This document shows, in pieces, positions 2-18,367 of a stretch of 32,000 bases of DNA (position 1 is its first letter; the number at the start of each line of letters is the position of its first letter). Position numbers and translations under genes: made by a program. Below the pieces are notes generated by a model, which saw nothing but the letters and a program-made list of their open reading frames with translations, was not told where the DNA came from and ran no database searches. This stretch comes from Coleofasciculaceae cyanobacterium CTOTU46674 (lineage in GTDB: Bacteria > Cyanobacteriota > Cyanobacteriia > Cyanobacteriales > Coleofasciculaceae), in the NCBI GenBank assembly GCA_031976315.1, contig DALYLM010000033.1:12137-44136 (forward strand), read 5' to 3'.

Positions 2-973
2 TTGCAAAAATCAGATCCAGTTAAAGCAACAGCAGAAACTAATTCTTTGTTGAAAATTGCTCAAACTTATGATGAAATCATCTTTCTCTATACAGCTACT
101 GCGGCTGGGGAACGTTGTGCTAAGGAAATAGAGCGGTATTTACAAAAACAAGGTTGGTTAAATATTCGGCTGCGCCAGCTACCTTTAGGCTCGAATGAAT
201 CTCATTTTGAGCGTCAGGGTTTGCGGGATTTAGTTAATATTTTGATTGATGAAATTACTAAAGCGCAACGAGAAAAACGAGAAGTGATAATTAATGCTAC
301 TGGTGGTTTTAAGGCAGAAATTGCTTATACGACGCTGGTAGGGATGATTTTTGAAGTTCCCATCAAGTATATCTATCAAGAATTCGATCAACCGATTACT
401 CTGCCTGTTTTGCCGATTAGCTGGAATATCGATTTATTATTAGAGTATGAGAGTTTCTTTGAGTGGTTGGATGGGGAACCTCGTCAAGAGGTTGATGTTA
501 ATCAGCGGCTGAAAGCAATGTTAGAATCAGATAGAAATCAAATTCTGCAAATCTTGTTACCGCCTGATGGAGAAGGATATATCTTTTTGTCGCCAGCGGG
601 TGAGATTCTCTGGAAACGGGTGGCACAGCAGCGAGAATTAGCAGAATTGGTGGAAAATCCACCTCCTTCTGATATTGCTGTTGCTGATAAAATTGCTGAT
701 TCTATAGCTGAAGATAAGCATCATTATCCAAAAGGAACATTAGCTTTTGCTCAAAAATTGGCTAAACTGGATGCTGTGGAGGAAATCATCGGGGGAAATT
801 TTGAACCGACTCTGCTGCGGCGGGTAAAAAGAGTGGATGATGATGGTACAATTCGGGTTTTGTGGGCGGATAATGAGAAAGCGAATAATATGACAATTCG
901 CACTACAGCAAGGGGAAAGGCACAAACCTTGAGATTTTGCGATCGCTATGTCCGTCCTCTGCTAAATTCTTAG
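2..973 (+). CDS. CARF-domain CRISPR ancillary protein. The 5' end is probably truncated by the window edge. It has a wHTH-like middle region and an uncharacterised C-terminal domain.
   Basis: The frame is open from the window edge, and the first codon is TTG, not a convincing start. 'VIINATGGFKAEIAYTTLVG' fits the CARF (D/N)xTGGxK pocket motif. The upstream 'AETNSL' is typical of APE2256/Csx-type CARF proteins. I saw no HEPN Rx4-6H motif. Confidence 0.7.
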   Translation: MQKSDPVKATAETNSLLKIAQTYDEIIFLYTATAAGERCAKEIERYLQKQGWLNIRLRQLPLGSNESHFERQGLRDLVNILIDEITKAQREKREVIINATGGFKAEIAYTTLVGMIFEVPIKYIYQEFDQPITLPVLPISWNIDLLLEYESFFEWLDGEPRQEVDVNQRLKAMLESDRNQILQILLPPDGEGYIFLSPAGEILWKRVAQQRELAELVENPPPSDIAVADKIADSIAEDKHHYPKGTLAFAQKLAKLDAVEEIIGGNFEPTLLRRVKRVDDDGTIRVLWADNEKANNMTIRTTARGKAQTLRFCDRYVRPLLNS

Positions 974-2324: not shown

Positions 2325-3778
2325 GTCCCCAACTAATCCGATTTAACCCAATCGGTAGGGTTAAAATTCCGTGTCTCGGACACGGGGAGTTTCGTTTCCA
2401 ACTAATCCGATTTAACCCAATCGGTAGGGGATGCTCCATTTTCGATAACCGATCAGGGACAGAACGTTTCCAACTAATCCGATTTAACCCAATCGGTAGG
2501 GGACTCGGCAATGTTTACCCCGAGTTGAGGAAAAATGTTAACGTTTCCAACTAATCCGATTTAACCCAATCGGTAGGGTTTTCGTTGACCGCAACGAAGG
2601 AGTTCCATTCGGCGTTTCCAACTAATCCGATTTAACCCAATCGGTAGGGAAACAGAGAAATGCTGAGCAAACAGCAGAAAATATAAAAAAGTTTCCAACT
2701 AATCCGATTTAACCCAATCGGTAGGGGACAAGACTGACTACACTATGGGGGAGGATCCCTATCTCCAAGTTTCCAACTAATCCGATTTAACCCAATCGGT
2801 AGGGTTAAAATTTCAGACCTTCCAACAGGGTGGGAATCAAGTTTCCAACTAATCCGATTTAACCCAATCGGTAGGGACCCCACTACAGGCTTCTGCGACA
2901 AGACTGACTACACTATGGGGGTTTCCAACTAATCCGATTTAACCCAATCGGTAGGGTTGCCTACTCGGCTAACGGAGACAAAGAAAACAACGTTTCCAAC
3001 TAATCCGATTTAACCCAATCGGTAGGGAAACATTCATAAAAAAATATCCCAAATGGAAGAGACTAGCGTTTCCAACTAATCCGATTTAACCCAATCGGTA
3101 GGGTTGGTGTAGCATACAAAACAGGGCCTTGGGTAGTGTTTGTTTCCAACTAATCCGATTTAACCCAATCGGTAGGGTCAGCCACGTCAGTGGCGGTAAC
3201 CAACGGCGTATTGCCTGTGTGTTTCCAACTAATCCGATTTAACCCAATCGGTAGGGTGAAATTTTGTTTGCAGTTCCTCAGGATCAGCCAGAGGTTTCCA
3301 ACTAATCCGATTTAACCCAATCGGTAGGGATTTCCAAAATCTGGTTTTTTAACCAAAATAAGGAAAAAGTTTCCAACTAATCCGATTTAACCCAATCGGT
3401 AGGGGAGCGGGAGGTAACTCCCCCCACAGACTGTTATTGTTTCCAACTAATCCGATTTAACCCAATCGGTAGGGTTAAATATAAAAGAGAGGGTTCTCAA
3501 CAAGGGTTTCCAACTAATCCGATTTAACCCAATCGGTAGGGGTTCCTATTCCCATAGATGCCCCTTCAGGGCCTATGATTGGGTTTCCAACTAATCCGAT
3601 TTAACCCAATCGGTAGGGTCGATGGGGGGGACGAGACTCTTATCTCGGCCGATCAGGCACGAGAGTTTCTAACTAATCCGATTTAACCCAATCGGTAGGG
3701 TTTAAATTCTGACGGAAGTGACAGGACTTCCGTTGAAGTGAGGTTTCCAACTAATCCGATTTAACCCAATCGGTAGGG
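2325..3778 (-). CRISPR. CRISPR array 1: 20 repeats of 36 nt and 19 spacers of 31-46 nt
   Basis: The plus-strand repeat is GTTTCCAACTAATCCGATTTAACCCAATCGGTAGGG. Repeat starts are 2325, 2394, 2466, 2543, 2614, 2691, 2769, 2841, 2921, 2992, 3068, 3142, 3221, 3294, 3369, 3439, 3506, 3583, 3665 and 3743. Orientation is minus for three reasons: the conserved leader is at the high-coordinate end, the degenerate terminal repeat is at 2325 (GTCCCC instead of GTTTCC), and the cas genes are on the minus strand. The transcribed repeat is CCCTACCGATTGGGTTAAATCGGATTAGTTGGAAAC. It has a 6-bp CCGATT/AATCGG stem and a GTTGGAAAC 3' end. The repeat at 3665 carries a C>T variant. Confidence 0.98.
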
Positions 3779-3988: not shown

Positions 3989-4433
3989 GATGTAGTAATA
4001 GCCACAGCCGTTTTCCAGCCGAGAAGGGAGCAGAGGGGCTGGGGGGCAGAGGGGCTGGAGAGAAAACGGAAAACTCTCTTCTCCCATTCCCCCTTCCCTA
4101 TTCCCTTGAGGCTGAGAATAGAGGAAATCAAAAGATTATCCACCATTTTTGCGATCGCGCACTGCACCAAAGGCAATATTGGTCTATCTTTTAGCTAAAT
4201 CAGCTTGTAGATAATCGAACCCGTCTCTCGATTATTGTCTATAACCATCACCTCGCTATCCACCAAACACTGGACAAAACTGGACAACCAGCTCAAACAG
4301 TGTAGAGATAGCCAGCCTAAGTGACAAACTACGTTTTCAGGGTGATGACACCTACAGGTGCTTTCCAGCCTGTAGCCTCTGTCGTCAATTATTAAACATC
4401 TCTTTGTCTCTAAGATAGATTGATAACTTCTTC

Positions 4434-4472: not shown

Positions 4473-6227
4473 TTAACTACCCCAAGTTAAGGTAAATCCA
4501 GAACTTTTGAGTTTTTTCACAAATTCCGGTAACTGATTCACTCCTTGCCGCTTCCACTCATTTAAACCAGGAGAATTACCGGAATTACCCCCATGAAATA
4601 GAGTGACAATTTCTAGATATTGATTACCACCAATCGGTAACATCCGATGCCAAACACAACTGACAGATGTTGGTCTGGAATCGCCTGGGTTTCGTCCGCC
4701 AATTGCTGGAGTTGTCTTAAATATTTCATTGTGAAATAACTCAATTGCTTGAGATTTAGCAACAACTTGGCTGTAAACACTTAAGCGTTGGGGACACCAA
4801 GATTCTTTCCAAGACAAGCATTGAATGGCTTTAGCATTAATTCCCAAATACTTGATTAACTCCTGACGTAACCCCTCTAAAAAGGTTTTCAAATCATTGC
4901 TATTTTTCATCGCGATCCGACCATCTTCAATCGCAGGAGCATCGTTTAAAGGACGATTGTTGAAATCGCTATCTAACCATTCCCAATGACAACCAATGGC
5001 ACGAGTTTTATAGTCAGAGAAAAAATCTTTATGCCAAACTCTTCGCCAGGATTTACCCAATCCTCCCATAATTAAAGTAAATTCCACAACCTTTTTCAGG
5101 AAATTAATATCTTGATTGGGGGCATCAAGATAGAATTGCCCTTTAGTTTCATAGACAGGTGTTTTTTCTATTCCCTGAGTGTCATATTTAGGAAATTCTT
5201 GGTTAGTCTGCCAATAAATTTGTAATTTGCCTGGATTGCCCGTATCTCCAAACAGGGTGCTAATCTTAGATTTGATCAGATTTTCATCGTTAGTGATACC
5301 TGCAAGTAAGCGATTGACATGACCTTTGAGAGTCGCTTTAAATACATTAGGTCGAAACTCTGGTTCATTACTGCGAAGCAAAGGACTAACACCGATTCCT
5401 TTGAGAGAAACCCACAGCGGATACTTATCTTGAGGGATAAAGCATAAACCATATCCTGTGCTGGTTTTACCCCCGATTCCCGCACGTAATGCCTGTTTTA
5501 ATAGTCCTTCAATCTTTTGCCATTCCTTGTCTGCTAAAGGTTTAGTACTGCTTAACTCAAAAACAAATGTTGGCTGATAGAAGCTAGCGATCGCAATTGC
5601 TTTGGGAGAACCCTTTCCTTGCACTTGTCGCTCCTGTTGCGGATGGACTACATCAATGAAACGATAGCAGATTTTTTCCTCATTATCCTTGACAACCGTT
5701 TTTGTCCCAGCCCAATCACCAATTGGATAAGCACCGTGAAATCTTAAAATTCCCTGTTGCTCCCCACTACCGCAATAGTACTCTTCATCCTGGCAATCGC
5801 AGACTCGGCGAAACAATCCTTTAATACCGCTTCCAGGAATAAAAGGAATACCATTTTTGCCAATAGTCGGACGCAAGATGCTATCCTGACCGCAATTGGT
5901 AAACACGCGGAAAGGAAAGTCAATTTTAATCCGGTACGCAGCACCATCTCGTCCTAGATGGGCTTCTGCATACTGATTAAATGGAGTGCTATCTTCAGAT
6001 TTAGGATAAACCCATTCTTCAGTCCATCGATCTAAATCTTGGTTATTTTTCGCATACTGTAAGCTACACCGTCCAGAGACTTGAGCGCGATACATCATTG
6101 GTACTTGTTCCGGATCGGGTTTTTCCCAGCAATCCTCCCTATCTTGGTCGGGAATATCGATATTACTCTTGCCACCTTTTTGTACCTGAGCTTTTTGCGC
6201 TCTTTGTAATGCTTTAGCAAAAACCAT
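4473..6227 (-). CDS. cmr6: Type III-B RAMP protein, an apparent Cmr6-Cmr1 fusion with two RAMP modules
   Basis: The N-terminal module has 'GIPFIPGSGIKGLFRRV' and the G-rich loop 'GIGGKTSTGYGL', typical of Cmr6. The C-terminal module has 'EFRPNVFKATLKGHVNRLL' and 'GGLGKSWRRVWH', which is Cmr1-like. It is the last gene of the cmr operon. Confidence 0.8.
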   Translation of the reverse strand: MVFAKALQRAQKAQVQKGGKSNIDIPDQDREDCWEKPDPEQVPMMYRAQVSGRCSLQYAKNNQDLDRWTEEWVYPKSEDSTPFNQYAEAHLGRDGAAYRIKIDFPFRVFTNCGQDSILRPTIGKNGIPFIPGSGIKGLFRRVCDCQDEEYYCGSGEQQGILRFHGAYPIGDWAGTKTVVKDNEEKICYRFIDVVHPQQERQVQGKGSPKAIAIASFYQPTFVFELSSTKPLADKEWQKIEGLLKQALRAGIGGKTSTGYGLCFIPQDKYPLWVSLKGIGVSPLLRSNEPEFRPNVFKATLKGHVNRLLAGITNDENLIKSKISTLFGDTGNPGKLQIYWQTNQEFPKYDTQGIEKTPVYETKGQFYLDAPNQDINFLKKVVEFTLIMGGLGKSWRRVWHKDFFSDYKTRAIGCHWEWLDSDFNNRPLNDAPAIEDGRIAMKNSNDLKTFLEGLRQELIKYLGINAKAIQCLSWKESWCPQRLSVYSQVVAKSQAIELFHNEIFKTTPAIGGRNPGDSRPTSVSCVWHRMLPIGGNQYLEIVTLFHGGNSGNSPGLNEWKRQGVNQLPEFVKKLKSSGFTLTWGS

Positions 6228-6286
6228 CGCTATCTATCCTTTGTTTGTTTCAACAGTTGACAGGTAAATTTGATCTAATTTAGCCC

Positions 6287-6787
6287 TTAACTATTGTTGT
6301 TCTCCTTTTTTTTATAACGTTGAGTCCACCAAACTAATGCCTCGCAGAACTGAGTCAGCACCATTAAGGCAATTCTTTGATCTGGCAACGGTATTTCCCA
6401 AATTTTCTTAGCCATACCTTGAATTTTTTTCGTTTCATCTGCCTCTTTTTTCTCTTTCTCTTCGCGAGTGCGATCGGGAAGGGTAGACTTCACATCATCA
6501 TTAGGCAACTTTACCCCAGCATCATCTAAGATTTTGACTAAATTATCCCAGACATCTTTCCAGTATGCCCCTTTTTCTTTACTGTCTTTATCGCGCTTCA
6601 GTCGTAAGTGTTCGCCCCAAAATCTTTCCAATCCATAAGCTACAGCCATTCTCATTTTATGAGACTCATTCAAAACATTTTTCTTGTCTCGATACTTTAG
6701 CACTAACAGTTGAGCTTCATAATCTAGATCGTAAGGTCGAAAAAAGTTTGTTTCTTTAGTAGCTTGATTTTCTTGTGTCTCAGTCAT
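6287..6787 (-). CDS. cmr5: Type III-B small subunit (Cmr5/Cas11-like)
   Basis: A 166-aa, predicted helical, K/E-rich protein in the canonical position between cmr4 and cmr6. The call rests mainly on position. Confidence 0.6.
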   Translation of the reverse strand: MTETQENQATKETNFFRPYDLDYEAQLLVLKYRDKKNVLNESHKMRMAVAYGLERFWGEHLRLKRDKDSKEKGAYWKDVWDNLVKILDDAGVKLPNDDVKSTLPDRTREEKEKKEADETKKIQGMAKKIWEIPLPDQRIALMVLTQFCEALVWWTQRYKKKENNNS

Positions 6788-6834
6788 AAACTTACCTCCT
6801 TGAATCAGTTGTATTTCCTGGAATTAAGGCTGCT

Positions 6835-7692
6835 TTAATTAGAATTATGAGATTTTAACCAAACTTCAGTTCGACCAAAACCAATCGATTCTAACCCACC
6901 AAAATAAAGTTCTTTCCCTTGGTCAATAAATTTGCCATCAGTTAAAAATTCTTCCCAATCCACAGTCTTGCTATCATAGGTTTTCCGCATAGCAATGGGA
7001 AATACCATTACCGTGCATTCTGGTAAAGCTTCCACATCAAAAAAAGCTCCTTTTTTCGCTTTCTTTTTGTCTGGTTCAAGTGAAACGCGACTCTGACGAT
7101 AAAGTGCCATATCGTGAATCATAGATATCTCCTTATCATTAACAACCACCAGCAGATGTTTGTTGGCATCGTCAACTTCTTTAGGAATGCAGTTGGCTAA
7201 GTCTTTATCCTCTTGCTTGAGTTTCAGAAATCCCAAGTTAAAAAAGAGAGTTTTACCAGAAGCTTTGCCAAAGTAGCTATAAGGTTTAAATTCCGTTACG
7301 GTTTGACCTGTTACCTTTTGATAGCGTTTCAGCAAAGCCGGACAAGAAACTCTAACAATTGGTTGATTGGGACAATAAACGGGAATCCAAACCAGGGAAG
7401 CATATTCAAATTTAATGATTCCTTCAGTGGTATTATTCTCAGTAGTATCCTTTGATTCATCAGATTTCGATTGACTGGGAGAAGCTTCTTTGCCATACCA
7501 GTAATCAACTTTTCCTTTTTCCTGACGCATATCCGCCCGAAACCGACCCCGAATCGAACTCCCAGGAATAATCCCCGTCTGAGTAAATTGATCCCGAAAA
7601 ATCAGGTTCAAATTACCCGTTTCTTCACCCGCAGTTGCACCCACATGGAGTGGTGCTTGGGTTTCAATAATGCCGTAAGCTTTTTTGTACAT
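6835..7692 (-). CDS. cmr4: Cmr4 (Cas7-family backbone RAMP, target-RNA cleaving subunit)
   Basis: 'APLHVGATAGEETGNLNLIFRDQFTQTGIIPGSSIRGRFR' matches the Cmr4 N-terminal signature, including the Asp in the 'FRD' context. The C-terminal G-rich loop is 'GGLESIGFGRTEV'. Confidence 0.85.
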   Translation of the reverse strand: MYKKAYGIIETQAPLHVGATAGEETGNLNLIFRDQFTQTGIIPGSSIRGRFRADMRQEKGKVDYWYGKEASPSQSKSDESKDTTENNTTEGIIKFEYASLVWIPVYCPNQPIVRVSCPALLKRYQKVTGQTVTEFKPYSYFGKASGKTLFFNLGFLKLKQEDKDLANCIPKEVDDANKHLLVVVNDKEISMIHDMALYRQSRVSLEPDKKKAKKGAFFDVEALPECTVMVFPIAMRKTYDSKTVDWEEFLTDGKFIDQGKELYFGGLESIGFGRTEVWLKSHNSN

Positions 7693-7720
7693 TGTTAACT
7701 CTCCAAATTATACGATGATT

Positions 7721-7783
7721 GTTCGTAGTAGGCACTTCAGTGCCTCAAAATCGTCTATTTGCACTAAAGTGCTTACTACGAAC
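7721..7783. repeat. Structured stem-loop repeat (GTTCGTAGTAGGCAC family) within the cmr3-cmr4 intergenic spacer
   Basis: The outer inverted repeat is gttcgtagtaggcac...gtgcttactacgaac. Two inner mini-hairpins are present (ggcac-ttca-gtgcc and gcac-taaa-gtgc). Related copies lie at 982-1007, 25718-25782 and 30577-30600. Confidence 0.75.
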
Positions 7784-7801
7784 TTAATTTACGAACTTGA
7801 T

Positions 7802-10826
<3,025 letters not shown>

Positions 10827-10863: not shown

Positions 10864-11727
10864 TTAGAGATGAAAAATTGAATCGACATCAATCAGAATA
10901 GGTTTAATTTCTCCTTGGGATAAAGGTTCCCCTTGCCAATCTCGTTTTGAATCCATATACTGCATCTTCCGCTTGGGAGAAGAAATGCAAGCCATCGCTA
11001 GGGCAACGCTCATCATTTTCGTTCCTCCAGTAATATCGGCAACTATCACTTCATCTTTATAGCCGGAATTCTCAAAAATTTCCTGGACTATTTGGCAAAG
11101 TTTAAGATAGTTCCAGCTTTCAACTGTGTAATCTTGACCTCGATTAATTGTCAGTTGGCAATTATACTTAAACAGTGTATATCTGGCTAAGATTTCAGCC
11201 GCGATTTCGGAACCTCTCTCGCCTCGGCTATCTGGGGTAGCCAAAAACCAAAGTTCATGTAAGATCCCGGAGTCAGCATGGAACTTGATTGCTTCAATTT
11301 GCGGACGTAAGTTAGAATTGAAAATATCGATATTGGTAAAATCTTCTTCGGTTAATTGGGTGATTAATGTTTGGCGAATTTTTTTGACCAAAGGTTCCAA
11401 AACTTGAGGATCTCTGAGATGTGGTTGGCTGGGAGAATAGGTACTTAAAAGTAAAATTAATCCCTTGGCTGGTGCAGGCGGTTGTGGTTTAAGAAAAAGA
11501 AAGGATTGTTCCTTTAAATATTTAATTCTCTCTTGAGATTTTTGGAGATCCAACCACCACCAAATTATAAAAATAATTATAGTTCCCACTAATCCAACTG
11601 GATTGAATTCAGTGAGTTGAGTCATGATGATAGTTACTACCACAAAGCCCAAAAACTGCCAAGGGGAATTCGGCGCTAAAAGTTCTTGGATGGAAAATTC
11701 TGGTTTGGTTTTGGACTTCAATATCAT
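10864..11727 (-). CDS. Membrane-anchored CARF protein (two TM helices plus CARF, Cam1-like architecture)
   Basis: There are two hydrophobic helices at the N-terminus: 'WQFLGFVVVTIIMTQL' and 'VGLVGTIIIFIIWWWL'. The CARF-type strand 1 is 'GLILLLSTYSPSQ' and the pocket motif is 'VADITGGTKMMSVALAMA'. It is the first gene of the cmr operon, ending 37 bp upstream of cas10. Confidence 0.75.
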   Translation of the reverse strand: MILKSKTKPEFSIQELLAPNSPWQFLGFVVVTIIMTQLTEFNPVGLVGTIIIFIIWWWLDLQKSQERIKYLKEQSFLFLKPQPPAPAKGLILLLSTYSPSQPHLRDPQVLEPLVKKIRQTLITQLTEEDFTNIDIFNSNLRPQIEAIKFHADSGILHELWFLATPDSRGERGSEIAAEILARYTLFKYNCQLTINRGQDYTVESWNYLKLCQIVQEIFENSGYKDEVIVADITGGTKMMSVALAMACISSPKRKMQYMDSKRDWQGEPLSQGEIKPILIDVDSIFHL

Positions 11728-12187
11728 TGCTTACCTACCACTCATTGCTGATTTCTACAGTATACGGTTAATTGGAAAGGTCTTTTTCCTGAGTATTTAT
11801 GCTTAGTAGATGACTGGGGATGGGGAGTCCCCCACAAAACTTGAAAACCAGCACCAGCCACAGGATTATTAGCCCTCCTGTGTAAATCGTATCTTCATCA
11901 AAAAGCGATCGCATTTTGCGAGTTGGCAGAATTGCGATCGCACTTATGATACATTGCGATTGTAACCCCGATTAATCGCCAGTTTGTAACCATACTTAAA
12001 TCAAGATCTTTTGTCTATGTAGTATCTATGTAGGGGTGAATGACATGGGCGATAATTTATGTTGAAAACCCTGGATATACAGTCCATATCCTTCACCCTC
12101 TCCTGGAGATCTAAACACGCCCTAGGCGATAATTTATTTGTTGGAGATGTCTATTGGACAATTCCTTCCTCAATGGGATTGAAAATG

Positions 12188-12266
12188 GGAGCATCCCGTG
12201 AGGGAAGAAATGCAGGTTGTATTCTTGCTCCCCCCTTTCACAAGGGGGGCTGGGGAGGTAAAAACC
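12188..12266. repeat. Small palindrome-containing repeat (CCCCCC-N8-GGGGGG, 'GGWGG' element), left copy of an inverted pair
   Basis: Its reverse complement aligns with 13873-13962, sharing gtttttacc..ccccagcc..cttgtgaaa.gggggagcaagaatacaa..atttcttc..gggatgctccc. It overlaps the stop codon of the JAB-E1 CDS. Confidence 0.75.
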
Positions 12267-13648
12267 TAAGCTACCTCTGAATCCCGATATTCTGAATTAC
12301 AAAAATAACAATCAGGAGTTACCAAATAATCAGTATTAGTCTTGTGCCACTTGCACTCCGGAAATTCATAAATCCAATCCAAACCAGCATCCACATTCAA
12401 AAAGCCTCCCACCATACCCTGAATAATACCAACTCCCGTGCTAGCACAGATACTATTTAACCAAAATACCGCCGGATCGTTAATACCAGATAAATAACCC
12501 GCTTGTGCTGCCATATTTTCAATCTCAACCGCAGCAGATTCTAAAGCCGCCCTTTGTAGATTAATAATATTACCGCACATCAAACACCAACCACCTCCTA
12601 ATGGGGGAACAGTGACGCGACAATACATCCGAGGAGTACCATTCGGTTTTACCTCAATATGAGTACCCAAACAAATCAAAGGACGCATATATTTTAAAGA
12701 TAATTCTTGGGCAATTTGTCGGGAATAGTGATTATCTGTAGCCACAACAATTAAATCGGAAGCTGCAATTTCCGATTCCACTAATCCATTTTCAACAGAA
12801 GTAGGTATTGCTTTGACACAAGAACCCGTGCGATAAATTTGTTTAATTAATTGCTTGACATATTCAACCTTATGCCACCGCCAATCTACCATTTTCTCGG
12901 TTGCACCCACCATGCGATTTAGATTGCTTCTTTCCAACCTGTCTGGATCGACCAAAACCCATTTTTTTACCCCTAAACGCCCTAATTGTTCGGCAAAAAC
13001 TGACCCGATTCCTCCACAACCAATTAAGGTAACAGTCAATTGTCCTAATCTGGCTTGAAAAGTTTCGCCAAATACTTTTTGCCGATTAAACATTTCATCA
13101 TTTTTCCTCATAATTGAGGTAGATTCCGGTAATTCAAACCAAGAATCAGAAAAACGCACCCTTTCAAAACCCGTCCCTTTCTTATACCAAATTCGGAATT
13201 GAGATTTCTGCAATGACTCATCAAAAACACCAGAAATTAACCGAGGTTTTTGCTGAAAACGAGAAGAAAGAAATCGAGCATATTCAGATTCATAACGGTC
13301 ATCAACGCAAGAAAAACAAGGAGTACTTTCTCCAGCATGAGTGTGAATGTGAACCACATCCAAATCACCTGGCTGGAGATATTTTTCTAATAAATAGAGG
13401 TGAAATTCTTGTTTAATAACCAACCCGCTAGCTGATTGACGTTCGTAGCAATCTGAAGTGGGAACTATCCAAGATTGAGGTACATATCTGACTTTATCTT
13501 TTCCCAGTTGATGGCGCTTACAGAATAAAAACCCGATTACTTCGTCATTATTATTGGTACGATTCTGTAGCATGACATGGCGGAATTCTTGCCAGAGGGA
13601 AGGGGAAACATGGAGAGAGTTTTTGGGTAAATTGGCGGAGTTATTCAT
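12266..13648 (-). CDS. JAB/JAMM deubiquitinase-like domain fused to an E1-like (ThiF/MoeB-family) adenylating domain
   Basis: The N-terminal JAMM elements are 'DEVIGFLF' (Glu) and 'VHIHTHAGESTPCFSCVDD' (HxH...SxxD). The E1 Rossmann fold shows 'LIGCGGIGSVFAEQLGRLGV' and 'VLVDPDRLERSNLNRM'. Two CxxC pairs, 'CLMCG' and 'CYFCN', fit the E1/MoeB zinc site. Confidence 0.85.
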   Translation of the reverse strand: MNNSANLPKNSLHVSPSLWQEFRHVMLQNRTNNNDEVIGFLFCKRHQLGKDKVRYVPQSWIVPTSDCYERQSASGLVIKQEFHLYLLEKYLQPGDLDVVHIHTHAGESTPCFSCVDDRYESEYARFLSSRFQQKPRLISGVFDESLQKSQFRIWYKKGTGFERVRFSDSWFELPESTSIMRKNDEMFNRQKVFGETFQARLGQLTVTLIGCGGIGSVFAEQLGRLGVKKWVLVDPDRLERSNLNRMVGATEKMVDWRWHKVEYVKQLIKQIYRTGSCVKAIPTSVENGLVESEIAASDLIVVATDNHYSRQIAQELSLKYMRPLICLGTHIEVKPNGTPRMYCRVTVPPLGGGWCLMCGNIINLQRAALESAAVEIENMAAQAGYLSGINDPAVFWLNSICASTGVGIIQGMVGGFLNVDAGLDWIYEFPECKWHKTNTDYLVTPDCYFCNSEYRDSEVA

Positions 13649-13757
13649 AGTTTTAGTTGAGAAATGATTGAATGATTTGTTGAGGTTGATTATAGATAAT
13701 TCAGGATTTTTGACTGAATCTTTTTCTCGGGATCGGAATTGTCACTAATTTTGATAA

Positions 13758-13843
13758 CCGACAGAGAATAAATTCTCTGTCTAAAAGCTCAAGTCCATTA
13801 AAATGGAGTGAAATTCTGATGCTAGTCGGTTTTAACCGACTTT
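13758..13843. repeat. Divergent partial copy (hairpins 1-3) of the multi-hairpin element seen at 16885-17041 and 18211-18367
   Basis: gacagagaataaattctctgtc / agtccattaaaatggagt / agtcggttttaaccgact. Hairpins 1 and 3 carry compensatory changes relative to the other copies. Confidence 0.7.
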
Positions 13844-13872
13844 GGGAGGATCCCACTTTGGCCAAGATACTT

Positions 13873-13962
13873 GTTTTTACCAAAGTTTCCCCCCCCCAGC
13901 CCTGCTTGTGAAACGGGGGAGCAAGAATACAATATGTATTTCTTCTAAATTGGGATGCTCCC
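13873..13962. repeat. 'GGWGG' palindromic element, right copy and inverted partner of 12188-12266
   Basis: See 12188-12266. The ORF-track entries 13701..14003 and 13842..14069 are translations of this repeat. Confidence 0.75.
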
Positions 13963-14047
13963 CCGACTTTAGCTATAATACAGTGATTAAAACTACTGTC
14001 CAACTATCGTACTTCCGTACTTTTTTTTACTGGCGCACTATCCTACT

Positions 14048-14530
14048 TTATTCCTCATTAATTGCATGACGAGCTGTAATAAATAAAGTAGCCAAATTAT
14101 GTCCATTTCCCGGAGAATTACTAGGTCGCCAAGAATTGAGCCATCTCTCTCGATTAAAGCCACCACCTAGTCCAACACAATACCAATACCAGCCTTCCTC
14201 GCTTAAAAATGGTGCGCCATAATAGCTTTGTCGAGTAAAGTGATGATCTCCTTCTCCTACAGTATTCCAAGGATAATTGAGATAGCAGCCAATTGGTGGC
14301 AGTCGAGGATAATCTGGTGGTAACAAAAACAGGATATCCGAGTTGGTGACTGTGAATTTTTTCGATGATAAAGGCATTCTTTTTACCATTATGGCGGTGT
14401 ATTGAATACCGCTAATGGTTTTACCACCTACGATCGCATTTTTGGCGACTCTTTCCAGAATTTTCAGTTCAGCGGTTAGTCTGGCTGTCGGCTGAAATCC
14501 AGAAGTGCGGGAATTAATGGTAATCGTCAT
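14048..14530 (-). CDS. E2-like (UBC-fold, prokaryotic E2 family) protein
   Basis: 'LFLLPPDYPRLPPIGCY' resembles the UBC xPxxYPxxPP motif. Candidate catalytic cysteines are C82 and C118 ('WYWYCVG'). The start codon is 9 bp downstream of the Ubl stop. Gene context includes a Ubl and an E1. Confidence 0.6.
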   Translation of the reverse strand: MTITINSRTSGFQPTARLTAELKILERVAKNAIVGGKTISGIQYTAIMVKRMPLSSKKFTVTNSDILFLLPPDYPRLPPIGCYLNYPWNTVGEGDHHFTRQSYYGAPFLSEEGWYWYCVGLGGGFNRERWLNSWRPSNSPGNGHNLATLFITARHAINEE

Positions 14531-14539
14531 GATTCTCCT

Positions 14540-14737
14540 TTATCCTTTGACAATTTTGGGGACTGTCCAAACTTTTGAACCTTCTTTAAGGGCTTCGTTT
14601 TCCTTTAAAGGTTTGGTTCCGCTAAACCCTTCTTCCATTACGTCATCATTGCCAATTTCTGGTAATCTGGTTCTTAATTCTTCCACGGTTGTTCCATTGG
14701 GTAAATCGACTAATTTCCCGTTAATTACTGCTCTCAT
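14540..14737 (-). CDS. Ubiquitin-like beta-grasp protein (ThiS/MoaD/Ubl-like) ending in Gly
   Basis: A 65-aa protein, 'MRAVINGKLVDLPNGTTVEELRTRL...VWTVPKIVKG*'. The size, the alternating strand/helix pattern and the free C-terminal glycine fit a conjugatable Ubl. It lies directly upstream of the E2-like gene. Confidence 0.65.
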   Translation of the reverse strand: MRAVINGKLVDLPNGTTVEELRTRLPEIGNDDVMEEGFSGTKPLKENEALKEGSKVWTVPKIVKG

Positions 14738-14825
14738 TTGATTTTCCTCTATTTAGCTTTGCTTCTCAGTCATTGAGCTAGGATATATTTGAATTAGGTG
14801 TTGCCTATTTTCTCTTTTCATTTTC

Positions 14826-15203
14826 CTATTTAGGATCGAGGATGATTCCAGAAAGTTGTTGGGAATTTTCTTGACATGACTTAGCCAAGAAACTGATGTT
14901 TAACCCGAGAGAGAATAACCCCACAATTACGAAAAAAGATGCGATGATTGTGGTAGCAAGTAATTGATTGTACAGCCCTTCAATTTTTTCAAGAGAGCCT
15001 CTCACACTTTTGAGCTGATTTTGGTATTCTTTCCTCTCTTGTTGTTGGGTTGTGAGAAGTTGGCATTCTAAGCGTTTAATTTGTTGGCTGAGGTTAGTAA
15101 CTTGTGCGTTAACGCACTCCAACTCGTTTGATTCTTGAACAATTAATTTGCCATTAACCATTTCCATGGTGTTTTTGGTTCTAATTTGAGGTAGAGCAAG
15201 CAT
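14826..15203 (-). CDS. Coiled-coil protein with a C-terminal transmembrane helix (function unknown)
   Basis: The central segment is Q/E/L-rich with heptad character ('NLSQQIKRLECQLLTTQQQERKEYQNQLKSVRGSLEKIEGLYNQL'). It is followed by the hydrophobic 'IIASFFVIVGLFSLGLNISFL'. It lies 33 bp downstream of the NYN gene. Confidence 0.5.
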   Translation of the reverse strand: MLALPQIRTKNTMEMVNGKLIVQESNELECVNAQVTNLSQQIKRLECQLLTTQQQERKEYQNQLKSVRGSLEKIEGLYNQLLATTIIASFFVIVGLFSLGLNISFLAKSCQENSQQLSGIILDPK

Positions 15204-15235
15204 CGTCTAATTCCTTGTTGCTGACATAAAGTGAA

Positions 15236-15823
15236 TTAATCAAAGAGATTAGCGTTACCAATTCTGTGATAGTTTTGCTGGTTGTTTTGTTGTTGAAAAT
15301 TATCAAATACTCCGATTAAATCGATAACGCTGCTGGCAGAAACTTTTAAGTCATTACCCAAAGATTGTTCGACAGAAGCCACTTCTACTCGCATTCCCCG
15401 TCTTCTCAATTTTTCAGCTAAATAGGCGAAGTCAGAATCTCCGGTGACTAAAACAACAATATCGGGACGAACTTCTAAGGCTAATTCAATCGCATCCATT
15501 GCCATGACGATATCAATATTGGTTTCGTATTCCTCACCTTTGGCTTTTCCTTCTTTGACAACAACTAAAAAGCCATTACTTTTTGCCCAATAGATGAATT
15601 TTTCCTTGGTTTTTCGTTGTTCTTCAAATCTTTCTCGCGCTGGGGGTAGCCCAACGTAGATTACCATTTCAATTAATTCTCTCCCTTCTCTGGGGTCCGC
15701 GAGATACTCGCGAATTTTCTGCCAGTCGATTCTGCGGTTAAAGCTTTGTGCGGATAGGAAGGTATTGTCGCTATCGGCAAAAATTAGTACCCGACGAGTT
15801 TGACTCATGATGTTTTGTCGCAT
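15236..15823 (-). CDS. NYN-domain (LabA-like) putative ribonuclease
   Basis: 'RVLIFADSDN' and 'IVVLVTGDSDFAYLAEKLRRRGMRVEV' match the acidic NYN/LabA signature. The true start may be the internal Met at 'MSQTRRV'. Confidence 0.75.
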   Translation of the reverse strand: MRQNIMSQTRRVLIFADSDNTFLSAQSFNRRIDWQKIREYLADPREGRELIEMVIYVGLPPARERFEEQRKTKEKFIYWAKSNGFLVVVKEGKAKGEEYETNIDIVMAMDAIELALEVRPDIVVLVTGDSDFAYLAEKLRRRGMRVEVASVEQSLGNDLKVSASSVIDLIGVFDNFQQQNNQQNYHRIGNANLFD

Positions 15824-16095: not shown

Positions 16096-16437
16096 CTACT
16101 TTTGAGGACGAATTACTCTAATTAATTTGCCTCTTAAAGTATCCTCACTAACAATTGCTTCATCGATTCGTATTGCTTGTCTTTCTATGTTTAAGTCTTC
16201 TTTACAGATGATAATTCCGAAATGGTGAGGTTGTCGGCGATGTAGTTGTCGGAAATCATCCCAATTACGTGTCAAAACGGCACGTTCATCCTTGATGGCA
16301 AAGGCTAAAACTTCCTCATCGGGAATCCCTAATCCAGAGTTTCCTGCTTCTCTAGAAGTAAGAATATCATGACCTGCAATCCGCAGTATTTCTATAATGG
16401 GTAAAGGGAAGTTTTCATCAGCATAGAGACGCGCCAC
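16096..16437 (-). CDS. DUF5615-family PIN-like toxin
   Basis: 'MARLYADENFPLPIIEILRIAGHDILT...VLTRNWDDF' is typical of DUF5615 (Mut7-C-like). It is separated by 2 bp from the upstream DUF433 gene. Confidence 0.7.
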   Translation of the reverse strand: MARLYADENFPLPIIEILRIAGHDILTSREAGNSGLGIPDEEVLAFAIKDERAVLTRNWDDFRQLHRRQPHHFGIIICKEDLNIERQAIRIDEAIVSEDTLRGKLIRVIRPQK

Positions 16438-16439
16438 TT

Positions 16440-16766
16440 TTAGTCTTCCTCATTTCTATGGATTGCTGCTTCAATTTCCTCTGAGTGCGCATTTGCATAA
16501 GCCCAAGCATTGACTAAATCTCCTGCACTCAAATCAGGAAAATCCTGTAAGATTCTTGCATCATTAGCACCTAAGCGCTGATAATTAACTAAAGACCAAA
16601 CAGGGATGCGAGTTTTGGCGATTCTGGCATCACCGCCACAGATACCTGGAGTTTTTTCAATGCCTTGCCAAATATTACTTAAACTCTGTGCTAAAAGTTG
16701 TATGGCTTGTGCTTTTTCTGCCACAGTTAAGGCAAGGAGTTGAGGTTCTAATTCTTTTAGTGTCAT
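16440..16766 (-). CDS. DUF433-family antitoxin-like protein
   Basis: 'TPGICGGDARIAKTRIPVWSLV' is the DUF433 core. It is paired with DUF5615, as in known two-gene modules. Confidence 0.7.
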   Translation of the reverse strand: MTLKELEPQLLALTVAEKAQAIQLLAQSLSNIWQGIEKTPGICGGDARIAKTRIPVWSLVNYQRLGANDARILQDFPDLSAGDLVNAWAYANAHSEEIEAAIHRNEED

Positions 16767-16884
16767 TTTGTGATTTATGTTAAAGTCAATATTTTAACAC
16801 AAAATGGCAGTGACAACTACTGAACATAACTATGCCCTATAGCCAATTTAAAACCATTACTCAAACCTCAACATTGTCAGTAAG

Positions 16885-17041
16885 GAGCCAAACCAGCCGT
16901 AGAATTAATTCTACGGCTAATAGCTCAAGTCCATTAAAATGGACTAAAATTATCATACTAGTCAGTTTTAACTGACTTAAGCTATTAGGCAGTGGTTTAA
17001 ACCACTGCCGGGTTATTGCGAAAGATGAGCTATCCTCCTGA
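16885..17041. repeat. 157-bp multi-hairpin (four stem-loop) element, copy A
   Basis: ccgtagaattaattctacgg / agtccattaaaatggact / agtcagttttaactgact / ggcagtggtttaaaccactgcc. It is a near-identical direct repeat of 18211-18367. Its last 12 bp supply the final codons and stop of the Rpn-family CDS. Confidence 0.85.
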
Positions 17042-18163: not shown

Positions 18164-18210
18164 AGTCGCTCGTAAAATATTGGCATCATTTTTTAAATTT
18201 GTTCATCAAA

Positions 18211-18367
18211 GAGCAAAACACGCCGTAGAATTAATTCTACGGCTCACAGCTTAAGTCCATTGGGATGGACTGAAATTATCATACCAGTCAGTTTTAACTG
18301 ACTTAAGCTATTAGGCAGTGGTTTGAACCACTGCCGGGTTATTGCGAAAGAGGAGCTATCCTCCTGA
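18211..18367. repeat. 157-bp multi-hairpin element, copy B (direct repeat of copy A)
   Basis: It has the same four hairpins as copy A, with differences mostly in loops (attaaaat versus attgggat). Confidence 0.85.

What the first reader, a model, noticed from the sequence alone, without database searches (positions are those of the whole stretch)
10864..11727. Two-TM CARF protein as the first gene of the cmr operon: a membrane cOA effector with no enzymatic domain
The ORF has two N-terminal hydrophobic helices followed by a CARF-like Rossmann core ('GLILLLSTYS' and 'DITGGTKMMS'), and nothing else. It ends 37 bp upstream of a cas10 that retains GGDD.

From established knowledge, TM-CARF proteins of the Cam1 type depolarise membranes on cA4 binding. 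This protein has two helices and is 287 aa, so it may be a distinct family. It is the only operon-encoded candidate effector.
Basis: partly seen in the sequence, partly recalled or inferred. Interest (0 to 1): 0.7.

Follow-up and report, generated by a model that had tools for sequence, protein, structure and literature searches.

The report
Two-helix membrane CARF sensor of Cmr operon
The first gene of this cyanobacterial type III-B CRISPR operon encodes a small membrane protein with a signal-binding CARF domain, most likely an alarm-triggered membrane effector of a class predicted in 2018 and related to the studied protein Cam1, so it is a real but fairly ordinary find.

Summary
A 287-aa gene on the minus strand (10864-11727) ends 37 nt before an HD-less, GGDD-bearing cas10/cmr2. 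It encodes two N-terminal hydrophobic helices (aa 23-39 and 44-60) and a canonical CARF domain, and nothing else.

The AlphaFold2 model is confident (pLDDT 89). Every significant PDB fold match is a CARF protein, and the Cam1 CARF domain ranks first.

The protein belongs to a large, mostly cyanobacterial family. In 38 of 40 loci, CRISPR-Cas genes or arrays lie within 10 kb. Profile comparisons link the family firmly to the '2 TM + CARF' class (PADLOC CARF_2M / CARF8-CARF_TM, described by Shmakov et al. 2018). Through that class it links to Cam1.

It is not Cam1 in the strict sense. It has two helices rather than one, carries a roughly 40-residue helical insertion, and shows no direct significant sequence match.

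The most likely function is a membrane effector gated by cyclic oligoadenylate, probably cA4, that causes depolarisation and growth arrest. This is inferred, not shown. A membrane-tethered ring nuclease or cOA sink is not excluded.

The claim that it is the only effector needs qualifying. A second CARF protein, whose CARF domain resembles Cami1, lies beyond the CRISPR array.

Verdict: new member of a known kind, with modest interest.

The parts
10864..11727 (-). Gene for the 287-aa 2TM-CARF protein (the stop codon is 10864-10866)
   Evidence: ORF listing and sequence. Identical protein P0001 from Cyanobacteria bacterium UBA11149, plus 124 homologous clusters.
11662..11727 (-). aa 1-22: K-rich cytoplasmic tail and conserved pre-TM motif (I/L-E-x-I/L-F-S/A-P19-R-S-P)
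   Evidence: P19 is invariant in 37 sequences. An F..P..S motif is also aligned in the distant ~240-aa 2TM-CARF family (hhalign).
11611..11661 (-). aa 23-39: hydrophobic helix 1 (WQFLGFVVVTIIMTQLT)
   Evidence: KD peak of 2.05. AF2 helix 22-39. Conserved E/Q24, F25, G27 and F28. A polar stripe runs through positions 32, 36 and 39.
11548..11598 (-). aa 44-60: hydrophobic helix 2 (VGLVGTIIIFIIWWWLD)
   Evidence: KD peak of 2.25. AF2 helix 43-74. Conserved G45, G48, W56, W57 and D60 (D/E in 32 of 37).
11464..11547 (-). aa 61-88: K/R-rich juxtamembrane helix and Pro-rich linker
   Evidence: AF2 helix continues to aa 74, then a lower-confidence linker (10-residue-block pLDDT 68 for aa 71-80). R61, R63 and K65 are conserved.
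10867..11463 (-). aa 89-287: CARF (Rossmann-like) domain
   Evidence: AF2 pLDDT is mostly above 90. Foldseek gave 34 PDB hits at E<=1e-3, all CARF proteins, with Cam1 8t66 on top. Sub-threshold Pfam CARF_Card1 and Csa3_N hits.
11317..11436 (-). aa 98-137: family-specific helical insertion between strand beta-1 and helix alpha-1 of the CARF domain
   Evidence: Appears as a 41-column gap against shorter 2TM-CARF families in hhalign. AF2 helices at 102-105, 107-119 and 127-131.
11008..11037 (-). aa 231-240: DITGGTKMMS, the post-beta-4 CARF ligand-binding motif
   Evidence: D231, T233, G234 and G235 are invariant, and K237 is present in 36 of 37. The motif aligns to Cam1 'DLTGGKLPMS', which contains K160.
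11728..12265 (-). 538-nt upstream intergenic region that travels with the operon (putative promoter region)
   Evidence: In a second assembly (L002) 99.7% identity runs from 3599 to exactly 12265, then breaks. Only consensus-level promoter and terminator matches were found here.
8892..10826 (-). cas10/cmr2 (644 aa): GGDD cyclase palm, starts directly with the Cmr2_N domain, no HD domain detected
   Evidence: Pfam Cmr2_N at aa 6-59 and palm2 at aa 343-477. PADLOC Cas10b at E 1.4e-168.
4473..8908 (-). cmr3 (7802-8908), cmr4 (6835-7692), cmr5 (6287-6787) and cmr6 (4473-6227)
   Evidence: Pfam and PADLOC hits.
2325..3778 (-). CRISPR array 1: 20 copies of GTTTCCAACTAATCCGATTTAACCCAATCGGTAGGG. Its leader-like 258-nt segment at 3743-4000 is repeated at 21824-22081.
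   Evidence: the repeat finder families D1 and D3.
2..973 (+). Second CARF protein of the locus (5'-truncated by the window edge; 358 aa in L001): CARF7/Cas_APE2256 with a DUF2103-type C-terminus
   Evidence: PADLOC CARF7--CARF_DUF2103 at E 4e-116. Pfam Cas_APE2256 at E 3.5e-29. PDB Cami1 8phj at E 9.5e-20 and ring nuclease Sis0811 at E 4e-15.

Best explanation
The gene encodes a membrane-inserted sensor-effector of the type III-B (Cmr) system that responds to cyclic oligoadenylate (cOA). It belongs to the '2 TM + CARF' class.

**Proposed sequence of events.**
1. The Cmr complex binds a complementary invader transcript.
2. The Cas10 palm domain (GGDD intact, no HD nuclease domain detected) makes cOA, most likely cA4.
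3. cOA binds the cytoplasmic CARF domains of a pre-assembled oligomer. By analogy with Cam1 this would be a dimer of CARF dimers, giving eight TM helices.
4. The change is passed through the continuous TM2-juxtamembrane helix (aa 43-74) to the N-terminal helical hairpins.
5. The hairpins open or perturb a conduit in the membrane.
6. The membrane depolarises, growth arrests, and the phage cannot complete its cycle.

**Shown here.**
- The gene is real and conserved.
- Both hydrophobic helices are present, and the charge distribution puts both termini in the cytoplasm.
- The CARF fold is confidently predicted.
- Homology runs to Cam1 through the 2TM-CARF class.
- The family is strictly associated with type III CRISPR loci.
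- The gene is placed in the operon directly ahead of a cyclase-competent cas10.

**Inferred.**
- The identity of the ligand.
- The oligomeric state.
- Pore formation.
- The growth-arrest phenotype.
For: **Anatomy.** Two hydrophobic segments lie at aa 23-39 and 44-60, flanked by K/R-rich regions. The AF2 model has pLDDT 89.3 and pTM 0.77, with a helical hairpin followed by an alpha/beta domain.

**Fold.** All 34 Foldseek PDB hits at E<=1e-3 are CARF proteins. The Cam1 CARF domain is first (8t66_A, E 1.3e-5, target TM-score 0.57-0.62).

**Homology chain.**
- The family profile A1 against a ~240-aa 2TM-CARF profile A3 gives hhalign probability 100%, E 9e-47. The alignment includes the TM region.
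- All 16 A3 members match PADLOC CARF_2M, with a best E of 4.8e-43.
- A3 against the PDB puts Cam1 on top at E 3.3e-7. The next hit is at E 0.0056.
- A3 against Cam1-like sequences gives hhalign 97.9%, E 3.8e-13.

**Ligand pocket.** The Cam1 residues that contact cA4 are S75/N76, T97, K160, Y180 and T183 (PMC10808066). Through the chained alignments they fall on conserved S95, T164, K237, invariant Y257 and S260.

**TM region.** Some positions are conserved beyond what hydrophobicity alone requires: P19 (invariant), E24, G27, G45, W56/W57 and D60.

**Genomic context.**
- In 38 of 40 family loci, cas10, RAMP, cas1 or cas6 genes or a CRISPR array lie within 10 kb.
- In Chlorogloeopsis the gene sits beside a csm operon, with no other CARF-family Pfam hit within +/-10 kb.
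- No copies were found on viral contigs.

**Precedent.**
- Cam1 depolarises membranes on cA4 binding (PMC10808066).
- Cap1, which has two TM helices, opens a tetrameric pore on cA4 binding (bioRxiv 10.1101/2025.11.13.688252).
- Cam1 often co-occurs with Cami1, as a Cami1-like CARF protein does here (PMC11229360).
Against:
- The direct profile comparison of this family with Cam1-like sequences is weak (hhalign 17.8%, E 1.4e-3). The family profile does not hit Cam1 in the PDB even at E<=10.
- The TM hairpin is clearly less conserved than the CARF domain (mean pairwise identity 32% versus 55%). That is also what a simple anchor would show.
- Each hydrophobic segment is only 16-17 residues long, so a re-entrant or monotopic hairpin is not excluded.
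- The window protein has Q rather than E at position 24.
- A second CARF protein in the locus could be the real effector.
- CARF-only soluble parts are typical of ring nucleases.
Confidence: 0.6

Rival explanations
1. It is a membrane-tethered ring nuclease or cOA sink. The CARF domain degrades or sequesters cA4 to set the threshold or switch off signalling. The toxic effector would then be the neighbouring Cami1-like CARF7 protein, and the helices would serve only as an anchor.
For: - The soluble part is a CARF domain with no fused effector domain, as in Crn1, Csx16 and Csx20 (PMC12409355).
- Ring nucleases Sso2081, Sis0455 and Sis0811 appear among the fold hits at E of about 1e-3. They also appear in the sequence hits.
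- Invariant polar residues (S138, N139, H150, K237) lie in or near the expected pocket.
- The TM hairpin is less conserved than the CARF domain.
- A second CARF protein is present in the locus.
Against: - The nearest characterised relative, Cam1, does not cleave cA4 (PMC10808066 supplementary discussion).
- Specific TM and pre-TM positions (P19, E24, G27, G45, WW, D60) are conserved, and the motif persists into families with about 29% identity.
- In some loci no other CARF-family protein was seen within +/-10 kb. Shmakov et al. 2018 made the same observation for the class.
Confidence: 0.15
2. It is a membrane-localised cOA sensor that acts through a partner rather than forming a conduit itself. 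It might recruit or regulate another protein at the membrane, or localise the response. Candidate partners include the CARF7 protein and the neighbouring 6E-type Ubl/E2/JAB-E1/NYN module.
For: - The hydrophobic segments are short and the TM conservation is modest.
- The NYN-Ubl-E2-E1 cluster recurs next to family members in four cyanobacterial genera.
- The gene's position within type III loci varies, lying next to cas10, RT-cas1 or cas6 in different genomes.
Against: - No partner is consistently present. The Ubl module is found in only about 5 of 40 loci. It is absent from a 99.7%-identical copy of the operon.
- Cam1, Cap1 and Chp1 act autonomously.
Confidence: 0.1
3. It works with inverse ('guard') logic, like the type II Panoptes CARF-TM. 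Ligand binding would keep it off, and loss of ligand (for example to phage ring nucleases or sponges) would trigger membrane damage.
For: A cyanobacterial CARF-TM effector (from Cylindrospermum) is held inactive by cA3 made by mCpol (PMC13577387).
Against: - That effector has the opposite domain order, with CARF at the N-terminus and the TM region at the C-terminus. It is paired with a constitutive mCpol.
- Here the gene is co-operonic with a full Cmr complex, whose cyclase depends on target RNA, and family members sit in type III loci.
Confidence: 0.05

Closest known systems
'CARF + 2 TM helices' class of type III accessory proteins (Shmakov et al. 2018, bioRxiv 10.1101/270033; PADLOC PDLC01168 CARF_2M, PDLC01053 'TM+CARF', and the CARF8--CARF_TM models)
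   Same: - Same architecture: two N-terminal TM helices followed by a cytosolic CARF domain.
- Same setting in type III-A/B/D loci.
- Significant HMM matches (E 1.3e-21, 6e-20 and 4e-15).
- Profile-profile probability of 100% to a ~240-aa branch, including the TM region.
   Different: - This mainly cyanobacterial branch is about 40 residues longer. The extra length is a helical insertion between beta-1 and alpha-1.
- No PADLOC model matches it end to end at family-level scores.
Cam1 (cOA-activated membrane protein 1, Nitrosococcus halophilus; PMC10808066)
   Same: - An N-terminal membrane segment, a C-terminal canonical CARF domain and no enzymatic domain.
- Encoded in type III loci, often alongside a second CARF effector such as Cami1.
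- It is the top PDB fold neighbour.
- Homology is supported transitively.
- Equivalents of its cA4-contacting residues are conserved here.
   Different: - Cam1 is 206 aa with a single 24-residue TM helix and a conserved pore-lining D17.
- The protein here is 287 aa with a two-helix hairpin, an extra helical insertion and about 12% identity over structure-aligned residues.
- The direct profile match is not significant.
Cap1 (CRISPR-associated pore 1; bioRxiv 10.1101/2025.11.13.688252)
   Same: Each subunit has two TM helices, and cA4 opens a pore in the tetramer. This shows that a 2-TM hairpin can form a cOA-gated conduit.
   Different: Cap1 has a non-canonical CARF-like domain that binds one cA4 per tetramer, plus a DUF4579 domain. 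The protein here has a canonical CARF domain with the DxTGGxK motif and no C-terminal domain.
Chp1 (TM + CARF + HAD; bioRxiv 10.64898/2026.08.05.743128) and Csx23 (PMC11014256)
   Same: Both are membrane effectors of type III systems that respond to cA4 and form tetramers.
   Different: Chp1 carries a HAD domain. Csx23 uses a sensor domain that is not a CARF domain. Neither architecture matches the protein here.
Stand-alone CARF ring nucleases (Crn1/Sso2081, Sis0455, Sis0811)
   Same: They have a CARF domain with no fused effector domain, and they appear among the fold and sequence neighbours.
   Different: They are soluble proteins with no TM helices. Catalytic activity could not be tested here.

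Membership tests
CARF superfamily | Rossmann-like alpha/beta fold with structural similarity to solved CARF domains | tested here: met
   The AF2 model has pLDDT 89.3. All 34 Foldseek PDB hits at E<=1e-3 are CARF proteins: Cam1, Csm6, Card1, Can2, Cdn1 and Crn1-type ring nucleases.
CARF superfamily | Conserved ligand-site motifs: Ser/Thr after beta-1 and D-x-T-G-G-x-K after beta-4 | tested here: met
   GLILLLS95 is present in at least 90% of members. D231, T233, G234 and G235 are invariant, and K237 is present in 36 of 37. Pfam CARF models match only below their thresholds (Card1 CARF at E 3.7e-4).
2TM-CARF class (Shmakov 2018; PADLOC CARF_2M / CARF8--CARF_TM) | Two N-terminal TM helices followed by a cytosolic CARF domain | tested here: met
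   Supported by hydropathy and the AF2 helices. Two hydrophobic segments pass my threshold in 31 of 37 family members. The charge distribution is consistent with both termini in the cytoplasm. No dedicated topology predictor was available.
2TM-CARF class (Shmakov 2018; PADLOC CARF_2M / CARF8--CARF_TM) | Significant match to the class HMMs or profiles | tested here: met
   PDLC01168 at E 1.3e-21, PDLC01053 at E 6e-20 and PDLC01941 at E 4e-15. hhalign to the ~240-aa members gives probability 100%, E 9e-47.
2TM-CARF class (Shmakov 2018; PADLOC CARF_2M / CARF8--CARF_TM) | Encoded in type III CRISPR-cas loci | tested here: met
   In the window it is the first gene of the cmr2-6 operon. In 38 of 40 family loci, cas genes or CRISPR arrays lie within 10 kb.
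Cam1 | Architecture: a single N-terminal TM helix, a linker and a CARF domain, about 200 aa in total | tested here: not met
   This protein has two hydrophobic helices and 287 aa, including a ~40-aa insertion. NhCam1 is 206 aa with one 24-aa TM helix (PMC10808066).
Cam1 | Direct sequence-family relationship to the NhCam1 CARF domain | tested here: inconclusive
   Directly, the family profile does not hit Cam1 in the PDB at E<=10, and hhalign to Cam1-like sequences gives 17.8%, E 1.4e-3. Transitively, through the ~240-aa 2TM-CARF family, the link is strong. The Cam1-like alignment was shallow and made of fragments, because full-length NhCam1 was not retrievable.
Cam1 | Conserved acidic pore-lining residue in the TM helix (D17) | tested here: inconclusive
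   The family has conserved acidic residues at the cytoplasmic ends of both helices: E/D24 in 25 of 37 and D/E60 in 32 of 37. The window protein has Q24 and D60. Equivalence to D17 cannot be established without a Cam1 TM sequence or a multimer model.
Cam1 | cA4 binding by a CARF dimer, tetramer formation and membrane depolarisation | not testable with these tools
   The only available evidence is conservation of the equivalents of the Cam1 contact residues S95, T164, K237, Y257 and S260.
Cap1 | Non-canonical CARF-like domain plus a C-terminal DUF4579 domain | tested here: not met
   The CARF domain is canonical. There is no DUF4579 or any other Pfam domain after it, and the protein ends at aa 287.
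CARF ring nucleases (Crn1-type) | Soluble stand-alone CARF protein with cA4 phosphodiesterase activity | not testable with these tools
   The 'soluble' part of the definition is not met, because of the TM hairpin. Activity cannot be judged from sequence. NCBIfam Crn1 matches only at E 0.097.

The most novel reading that the evidence does not exclude
The cyanobacterial branch may be a mechanistically distinct cOA-gated two-helix channel. Two features absent from Cam1, Cap1 and Chp1 could together form its gating device. One is the ~40-residue helical insertion placed at the ligand-binding face of the CARF domain, ending in the invariant SN(L)xPQ motif (H150, eight residues further on in helix alpha-1, is also invariant but is shared with the shorter 2TM-CARF families and the one Cam1-like sequence covering that region). 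The other is the conserved FxPxSPxEF pre-TM motif.

This could come with a different ligand preference or a different target membrane, such as the thylakoid. In some genomes it could also be functionally coupled to the adjacent 6E-type ubiquitin-like module.
Probability: 0.15. Interest if true: 0.55.

Novelty: new member of a known kind. Interest (0 to 1): 0.3.

Why it matters
Membrane effectors that bind cyclic oligoadenylate are an active topic. Cam1 was described in 2024, Csx23 in 2024, and Cap1 and Chp1 in 2025-26.

In the papers I read, no effector with two TM helices, a canonical CARF domain and nothing else has been studied experimentally. This family would therefore be a reasonable and compact model of about 280 aa. 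It has clear conserved positions to mutate, and it could show how a CARF dimer couples to a two-helix hairpin.

The family is also a marker of type III loci in cyanobacteria. Because the Cas10 here lacks a detectable HD domain, signalling effectors may carry most of the immunity in this system.

None of this overturns current understanding. The architecture, its genomic association and the likely mechanism were all anticipated.

Tried and rejected
**Libraries and papers that were unavailable.**
- The Makarova 2020 CARF classification paper is not held. The 'CARF8' assignment therefore rests only on PADLOC model names.

**Cam1 sequence.**
- Full-length NhCam1 could not be retrieved.
- A 101-aa fragment read from a PDB alignment recovered only five partial relatives.
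- Because of this, the Cam1 TM helix could not be compared. The direct profile comparison was shallow and weak.

**Pfam and NCBIfam.** These gave only sub-threshold CARF hits for the protein. The TIGR02710/'Cas_Cas02710' label used by some sources reflects the shared DxTGGxK motif region, not membership (score 25.8 bits against a cutoff of 83.9).

**Context search.** Searching with the window's own Cas proteins by single-sequence phmmer suggested that many homologues lacked nearby cas genes. This was an artefact of sensitivity. Pfam-annotated contexts and iterated profiles showed cas genes or arrays in 38 of 40 loci.

**Other negative or unhelpful results.**
- No relatives were found on viral contigs.
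- Promoter and terminator scans of the upstream region gave only consensus-level matches near background.
- I considered whether the upstream Ubl/E1/E2 cluster belongs to the same unit. I rejected this because a 99.7%-identical copy of the operon lacks the cluster, and the similarity breaks exactly at position 12265.
Full report
**1. The observation**

The ORF lies on the minus strand at 10864..11727, starts with ATG and encodes 287 aa.

Both quoted peptides are present: GLILLLSTYS at aa 89-98 and DITGGTKMMS at aa 231-240.

Kyte-Doolittle analysis shows two hydrophobic segments, aa 23-39 and aa 44-60. Their 15-residue means reach 2.05 and 2.25. A TEFNP turn separates them. A K-rich tail precedes them and a K/R-rich stretch follows. 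This charge pattern places both termini, and therefore the CARF domain, in the cytoplasm.

The gene is real:
- An identical protein is annotated in Cyanobacteria bacterium UBA11149, and 124 homologous clusters were found.
- An exhaustive HMMER search with the family profile finds 50 clusters (50% identity) at E<=1e-30, 363 at E<=1e-10 and 1289 at E<=1e-3.

**2. What the protein is**

Curated libraries see it only weakly:
- Pfam CARF_Card1 at E 3.7e-4 and Csa3_N at E 1.6e-3, both below threshold.
- NCBIfam TIGR02710 at 25.8 bits against a cutoff of 83.9.

PADLOC recognises it clearly:
- 'CARF_2M: CARF, 2 TMs' at E 1.3e-21.
- 'Csx1 TM+CARF' at E 6e-20.
- 'CARF8--CARF_TM' at E 4e-15.

A 37-sequence family alignment (A1) shows the following conserved features:
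- Invariant P19, S138, N139, A146, H150, S173, D231, T233, G234, G235, C247, Q256 and Y257.
- Near-invariant GLILLLS.
- Hydrophobic segments at the N-terminus. Two pass my threshold in 31 of 37 members, and the remaining members have at least one.

AlphaFold2 run with this alignment gives a confident model (mean pLDDT 89.3, pTM 0.77). It has helices at 22-39 and 43-74, a lower-confidence linker, and then an alpha/beta domain spanning aa 89-279.

Foldseek against the PDB returns 34 hits at E<=1e-3, and every one is a CARF protein. The Cam1 CARF domain comes first (8t66_A, E 1.3e-5, target TM-score 0.57-0.62, 12% identity). It is followed closely by TtCsm6, Card1, Can2, Cdn1, Sso1393 and the Crn1-type ring nucleases.

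No other domain is detected. The description 'two TM helices + CARF and nothing else' is correct.

**3. Relationship to known TM-CARF proteins**

The family profile does not hit Cam1 in the PDB by sequence, even at E<=10. Only Card1 appears, at E 5e-4. More distant relatives bridge the gap.

- **Chloroflexota proteins.** 2TM-CARF proteins of about 245-260 aa (alignment A2) align to the family at hhalign probability 99.8%, E 1.3e-28. They show that the family carries a 41-residue insertion between strand beta-1 and helix alpha-1.
- **The ~240-aa family.** Sixteen 2TM-CARF proteins of about 240 aa taken from the exhaustive search (alignment A3) all match PADLOC CARF_2M, with a best E of 4.8e-43.
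- **A1 to A3.** These align at probability 100%, E 9e-47. The alignment includes the pre-TM and TM region.
- **A3 to Cam1.** The A3 profile puts Cam1 at the top of the PDB at E 3.3e-7, with the next hit at E 0.0056. It also aligns to Cam1-like sequences at 97.9%, E 3.8e-13.
- **A1 to Cam1 directly.** This comparison is weak (17.8%, E 1.4e-3). The Cam1-like alignment was shallow because full-length NhCam1 could not be retrieved.

The window protein is therefore a divergent branch of the same TM-CARF clade that contains Cam1. It is not Cam1 in the strict sense. NhCam1 is 206 aa, with a single 24-residue TM helix and a conserved pore-lining D17 (PMC10808066).

The 2TM + CARF architecture itself is not new. 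Shmakov et al. [quoted passage not shown] They proposed that these proteins sense Cas10-made oligoadenylates through an unknown effector mechanism (bioRxiv 10.1101/270033). A membrane-associated CARF had already been noted in 2014 (PMC4012209).

**4. The ligand site**

In NhCam1, cA4 is held by S75/N76, T97, K160, Y180 and T183, among other residues. Mutating them lowers affinity or abolishes function (PMC10808066).

Reading the Cam1 segment from the HMMER alignment and chaining it through A3 to A1 gives this mapping:

| Cam1 residue | Window residue | Conservation in the family |
|---|---|---|
| S75 (post-beta-1 Ser) | S95 | 35 of 37 |
| T97 | T164 | S/T in the family |
| K160 (TGGK loop) | K237 | 36 of 37 |
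| Y180 | Y257 | invariant |
| T183 | S260 | mostly S/A |

The mapping is an inference from chained alignments. It is consistent with Cam1-like binding of cA4.

The family-specific insertion (aa 98-137) ends in the invariant S138-N139 motif at the N-cap of alpha-1, which is the ligand face. It could act as a lid or alter specificity.

**5. The membrane part**

Several positions are conserved beyond simple hydrophobicity:
- The pre-TM motif (I/L)-E-x-(I/L)-F-(S/A)-P19-R-S-P.
- E24 (E21, Q6, D4 among 37), F25, G27 and F28.
- A small-polar stripe at positions 32, 36 and 39, which lie on one helical face.
- G45 and G48.
- W56 and W57.
- D60 (D23, E9, N4), followed by R61, R63 and K65.

An F..P..S pre-TM motif is also aligned in the ~240-aa family, at only 29% overall identity.

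Against reading too much into this, the hairpin is clearly less conserved than the CARF domain (mean pairwise identity 32% versus 55%). Each segment is only 16-17 residues long. The window protein has Q at position 24. The evidence for a functional conduit rather than a passive anchor is therefore suggestive, not strong.

**6. Genomic setting**

The operon on the minus strand runs in this order:
- 2TM-CARF (10864-11727)
- cas10/cmr2 (8892-10826; PADLOC Cas10b at E 1.4e-168)
- cmr3 (7802-8908)
- cmr4 (6835-7692)
- cmr5 (6287-6787)
- cmr6 (4473-6227)

A leader-like segment and a 20-repeat CRISPR array at about 2325-3778 follow the operon.

A second array with the same 36-nt repeat (about 30 copies, roughly 19708-21859) has a duplicated 258-nt leader-like segment. 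It lies next to an RT-Cas1 fusion at 23194-25581.

Cas10 starts directly with the Cmr2_N domain, and no HD domain is detected. Signalling may therefore be its main output beyond RNA cleavage by Cmr4. This is an inference.

A 99.7%-identical copy of the operon in another assembly keeps the 538-nt upstream region. Similarity breaks exactly at 12265, which defines the module boundary.

Across the family, 38 of 40 loci with a full-length member have cas10, RAMP, cas1 or cas6 genes or an array within 10 kb. The two exceptions are contigs shorter than 5 kb. The gene's position varies:
- First gene of a cmr operon only in the closest relatives.
- Divergent from csm1 in Chlorogloeopsis.
- Beside cas1 and RT-cas1 in Microcoleus.

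The family is mostly cyanobacterial. A few members occur in Trueperaceae, Actinomycetota and Anaerolineae. None was found on viral contigs.

**7. 'The only effector'?**

Within the operon this is true. Within the locus it is not.

The partial ORF at 2..973(+) is 358 aa in L001. It lies beyond the array and converges on the operon. It is a CARF7/Cas_APE2256 protein:
- PADLOC CARF7--CARF_DUF2103 at E 4e-116.
- Pfam Cas_APE2256 at E 3.5e-29.
- Best PDB match Cami1 at E 9.5e-20, followed by the ring nuclease Sis0811 at E 4e-15.

Published surveys report that Cam1 co-occurs with other effectors in about half of loci (PMC11229360). They also report that it is accompanied by ring nucleases in 81% of loci (PMC12409355). 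The pairing seen here fits the known pattern.

**8. Mechanism and rivals**

The best-supported reading (confidence about 0.6) is a cOA-gated membrane effector, probably responding to cA4. Target RNA binding activates the Cas10 cyclase. cOA then binds the cytoplasmic CARF domains of a pre-formed oligomer. The continuous TM2-juxtamembrane helix passes the change to the hairpins. The membrane depolarises and growth stops. This follows what has been shown for Cam1 (PMC10808066) and for the two-TM Cap1 pore (bioRxiv 10.1101/2025.11.13.688252).

The rivals are:
- **Ring nuclease or cOA sink (0.15).** A membrane-tethered enzyme or sponge that regulates the CARF7 protein.
- **Sensor acting through a partner (0.1).**
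- **Inverse 'guard' logic (0.05).** This is how the Panoptes type II CARF-TM works, where cA3 keeps the effector off (PMC13577387). That protein has the opposite domain order and is paired with a constitutive mCpol.

**9. Verdict**

The function remains inferred.

This is an uncharacterised, insertion-bearing cyanobacterial branch of an already described class. I rate it a new member of a known kind, with interest of about 0.3. Its main value is as a compact experimental model for how a canonical CARF dimer gates a two-helix membrane hairpin.

Noticed in passing
window 12266-15823 (- strand); also L004, L013, L014/L066: **Composition.** A ubiquitin-like conjugation module lies directly upstream of the 2TM-CARF gene. 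It consists of:
- an NYN nuclease (15236-15823);
- a 125-aa coiled-coil protein with a C-terminal hydrophobic segment (14826-15203);
- a 65-aa ThiS-like Ubl (14540-14737);
- a 160-aa E2-like protein (14048-14530);
- a 460-aa ThiF/E1 (12266-13648).

The extra N-terminal domain of the E1 carries an HxH...S..D motif that looks JAB-like by eye. This resembles the '6E' operon type of Iyer et al. 2006.

**Recurrence.** The same cluster appears inside or beside type III CRISPR loci that carry 2TM-CARF homologues in Symploca, Crocosphaera and Laspinema.

**Absence.** It is missing from a 99.7%-identical copy of the cmr operon, where similarity breaks exactly at 12265.

This may be a Ubl module linked to type III CRISPR loci.
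   Followed up: partly
window 2-973 (+), truncated at the window edge: A second CARF protein of the locus, 358 aa in L001. It matches CARF7/Cas_APE2256 with a DUF2103-type C-terminus. Its best PDB match is Cami1 (E 9.5e-20), followed by the ring nuclease Sis0811 (E 4e-15). It could be either a second effector or a ring nuclease.
   Followed up: partly
window ~2325-3778 and ~19708-21859; 3743-4000 and 21824-22081: Two CRISPR arrays (about 20 and about 30 repeats) share the 36-nt repeat GTTTCCAACTAATCCGATTTAACCCAATCGGTAGGG. Each is preceded by a copy of a 258-nt leader-like segment (86% identical). Together they bracket the cmr operon, the Ubl module and several toxin-antitoxin genes.
   Followed up: partly
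window 8892-10826 (-): Cas10/Cmr2 is short (644 aa) and begins directly with the Cmr2_N domain. No HD nuclease domain was detected, while GGDD is intact. This suggests the system relies on signalling.
   Followed up: partly
window 23194-25581 (-); 24399-24533: An RT-Cas1 fusion (795 aa). It contains three tandem copies of a 45-nt unit (TCAAAGTCCCCCTTAGTAAGGGGGATTTAGGGGGATC...) that fall in frame in the linker between the RT and Cas1 domains.
   Followed up: no
window 13765-13842, 16877-17041, 18203-18367; genes 1017-2141 (-) and 17030-18163 (-): Dispersed repeats of about 78-165 nt (78-90% identical) lie near two unannotated genes of similar size (374 and 377 aa) that have no Pfam or NCBIfam match. 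They may be small mobile-element remnants within the CRISPR locus.
   Followed up: no
window 16096-16766 (-), 18577-19624 (+): Two toxin-antitoxin-like pairs, DUF433/DUF5615 and HTH_17/PIN (VapC-like), lie between the Ubl module and CRISPR array 2.
   Followed up: no
L063/L064 1874-3073 (Chlorogloeopsis fritschii PCC 6912): In this relative's locus, a Ser/Thr protein kinase with TPR repeats is embedded in the csm operon. It sits between a RAMP gene and cas6, next to the divergently oriented 2TM-CARF gene.
   Followed up: no
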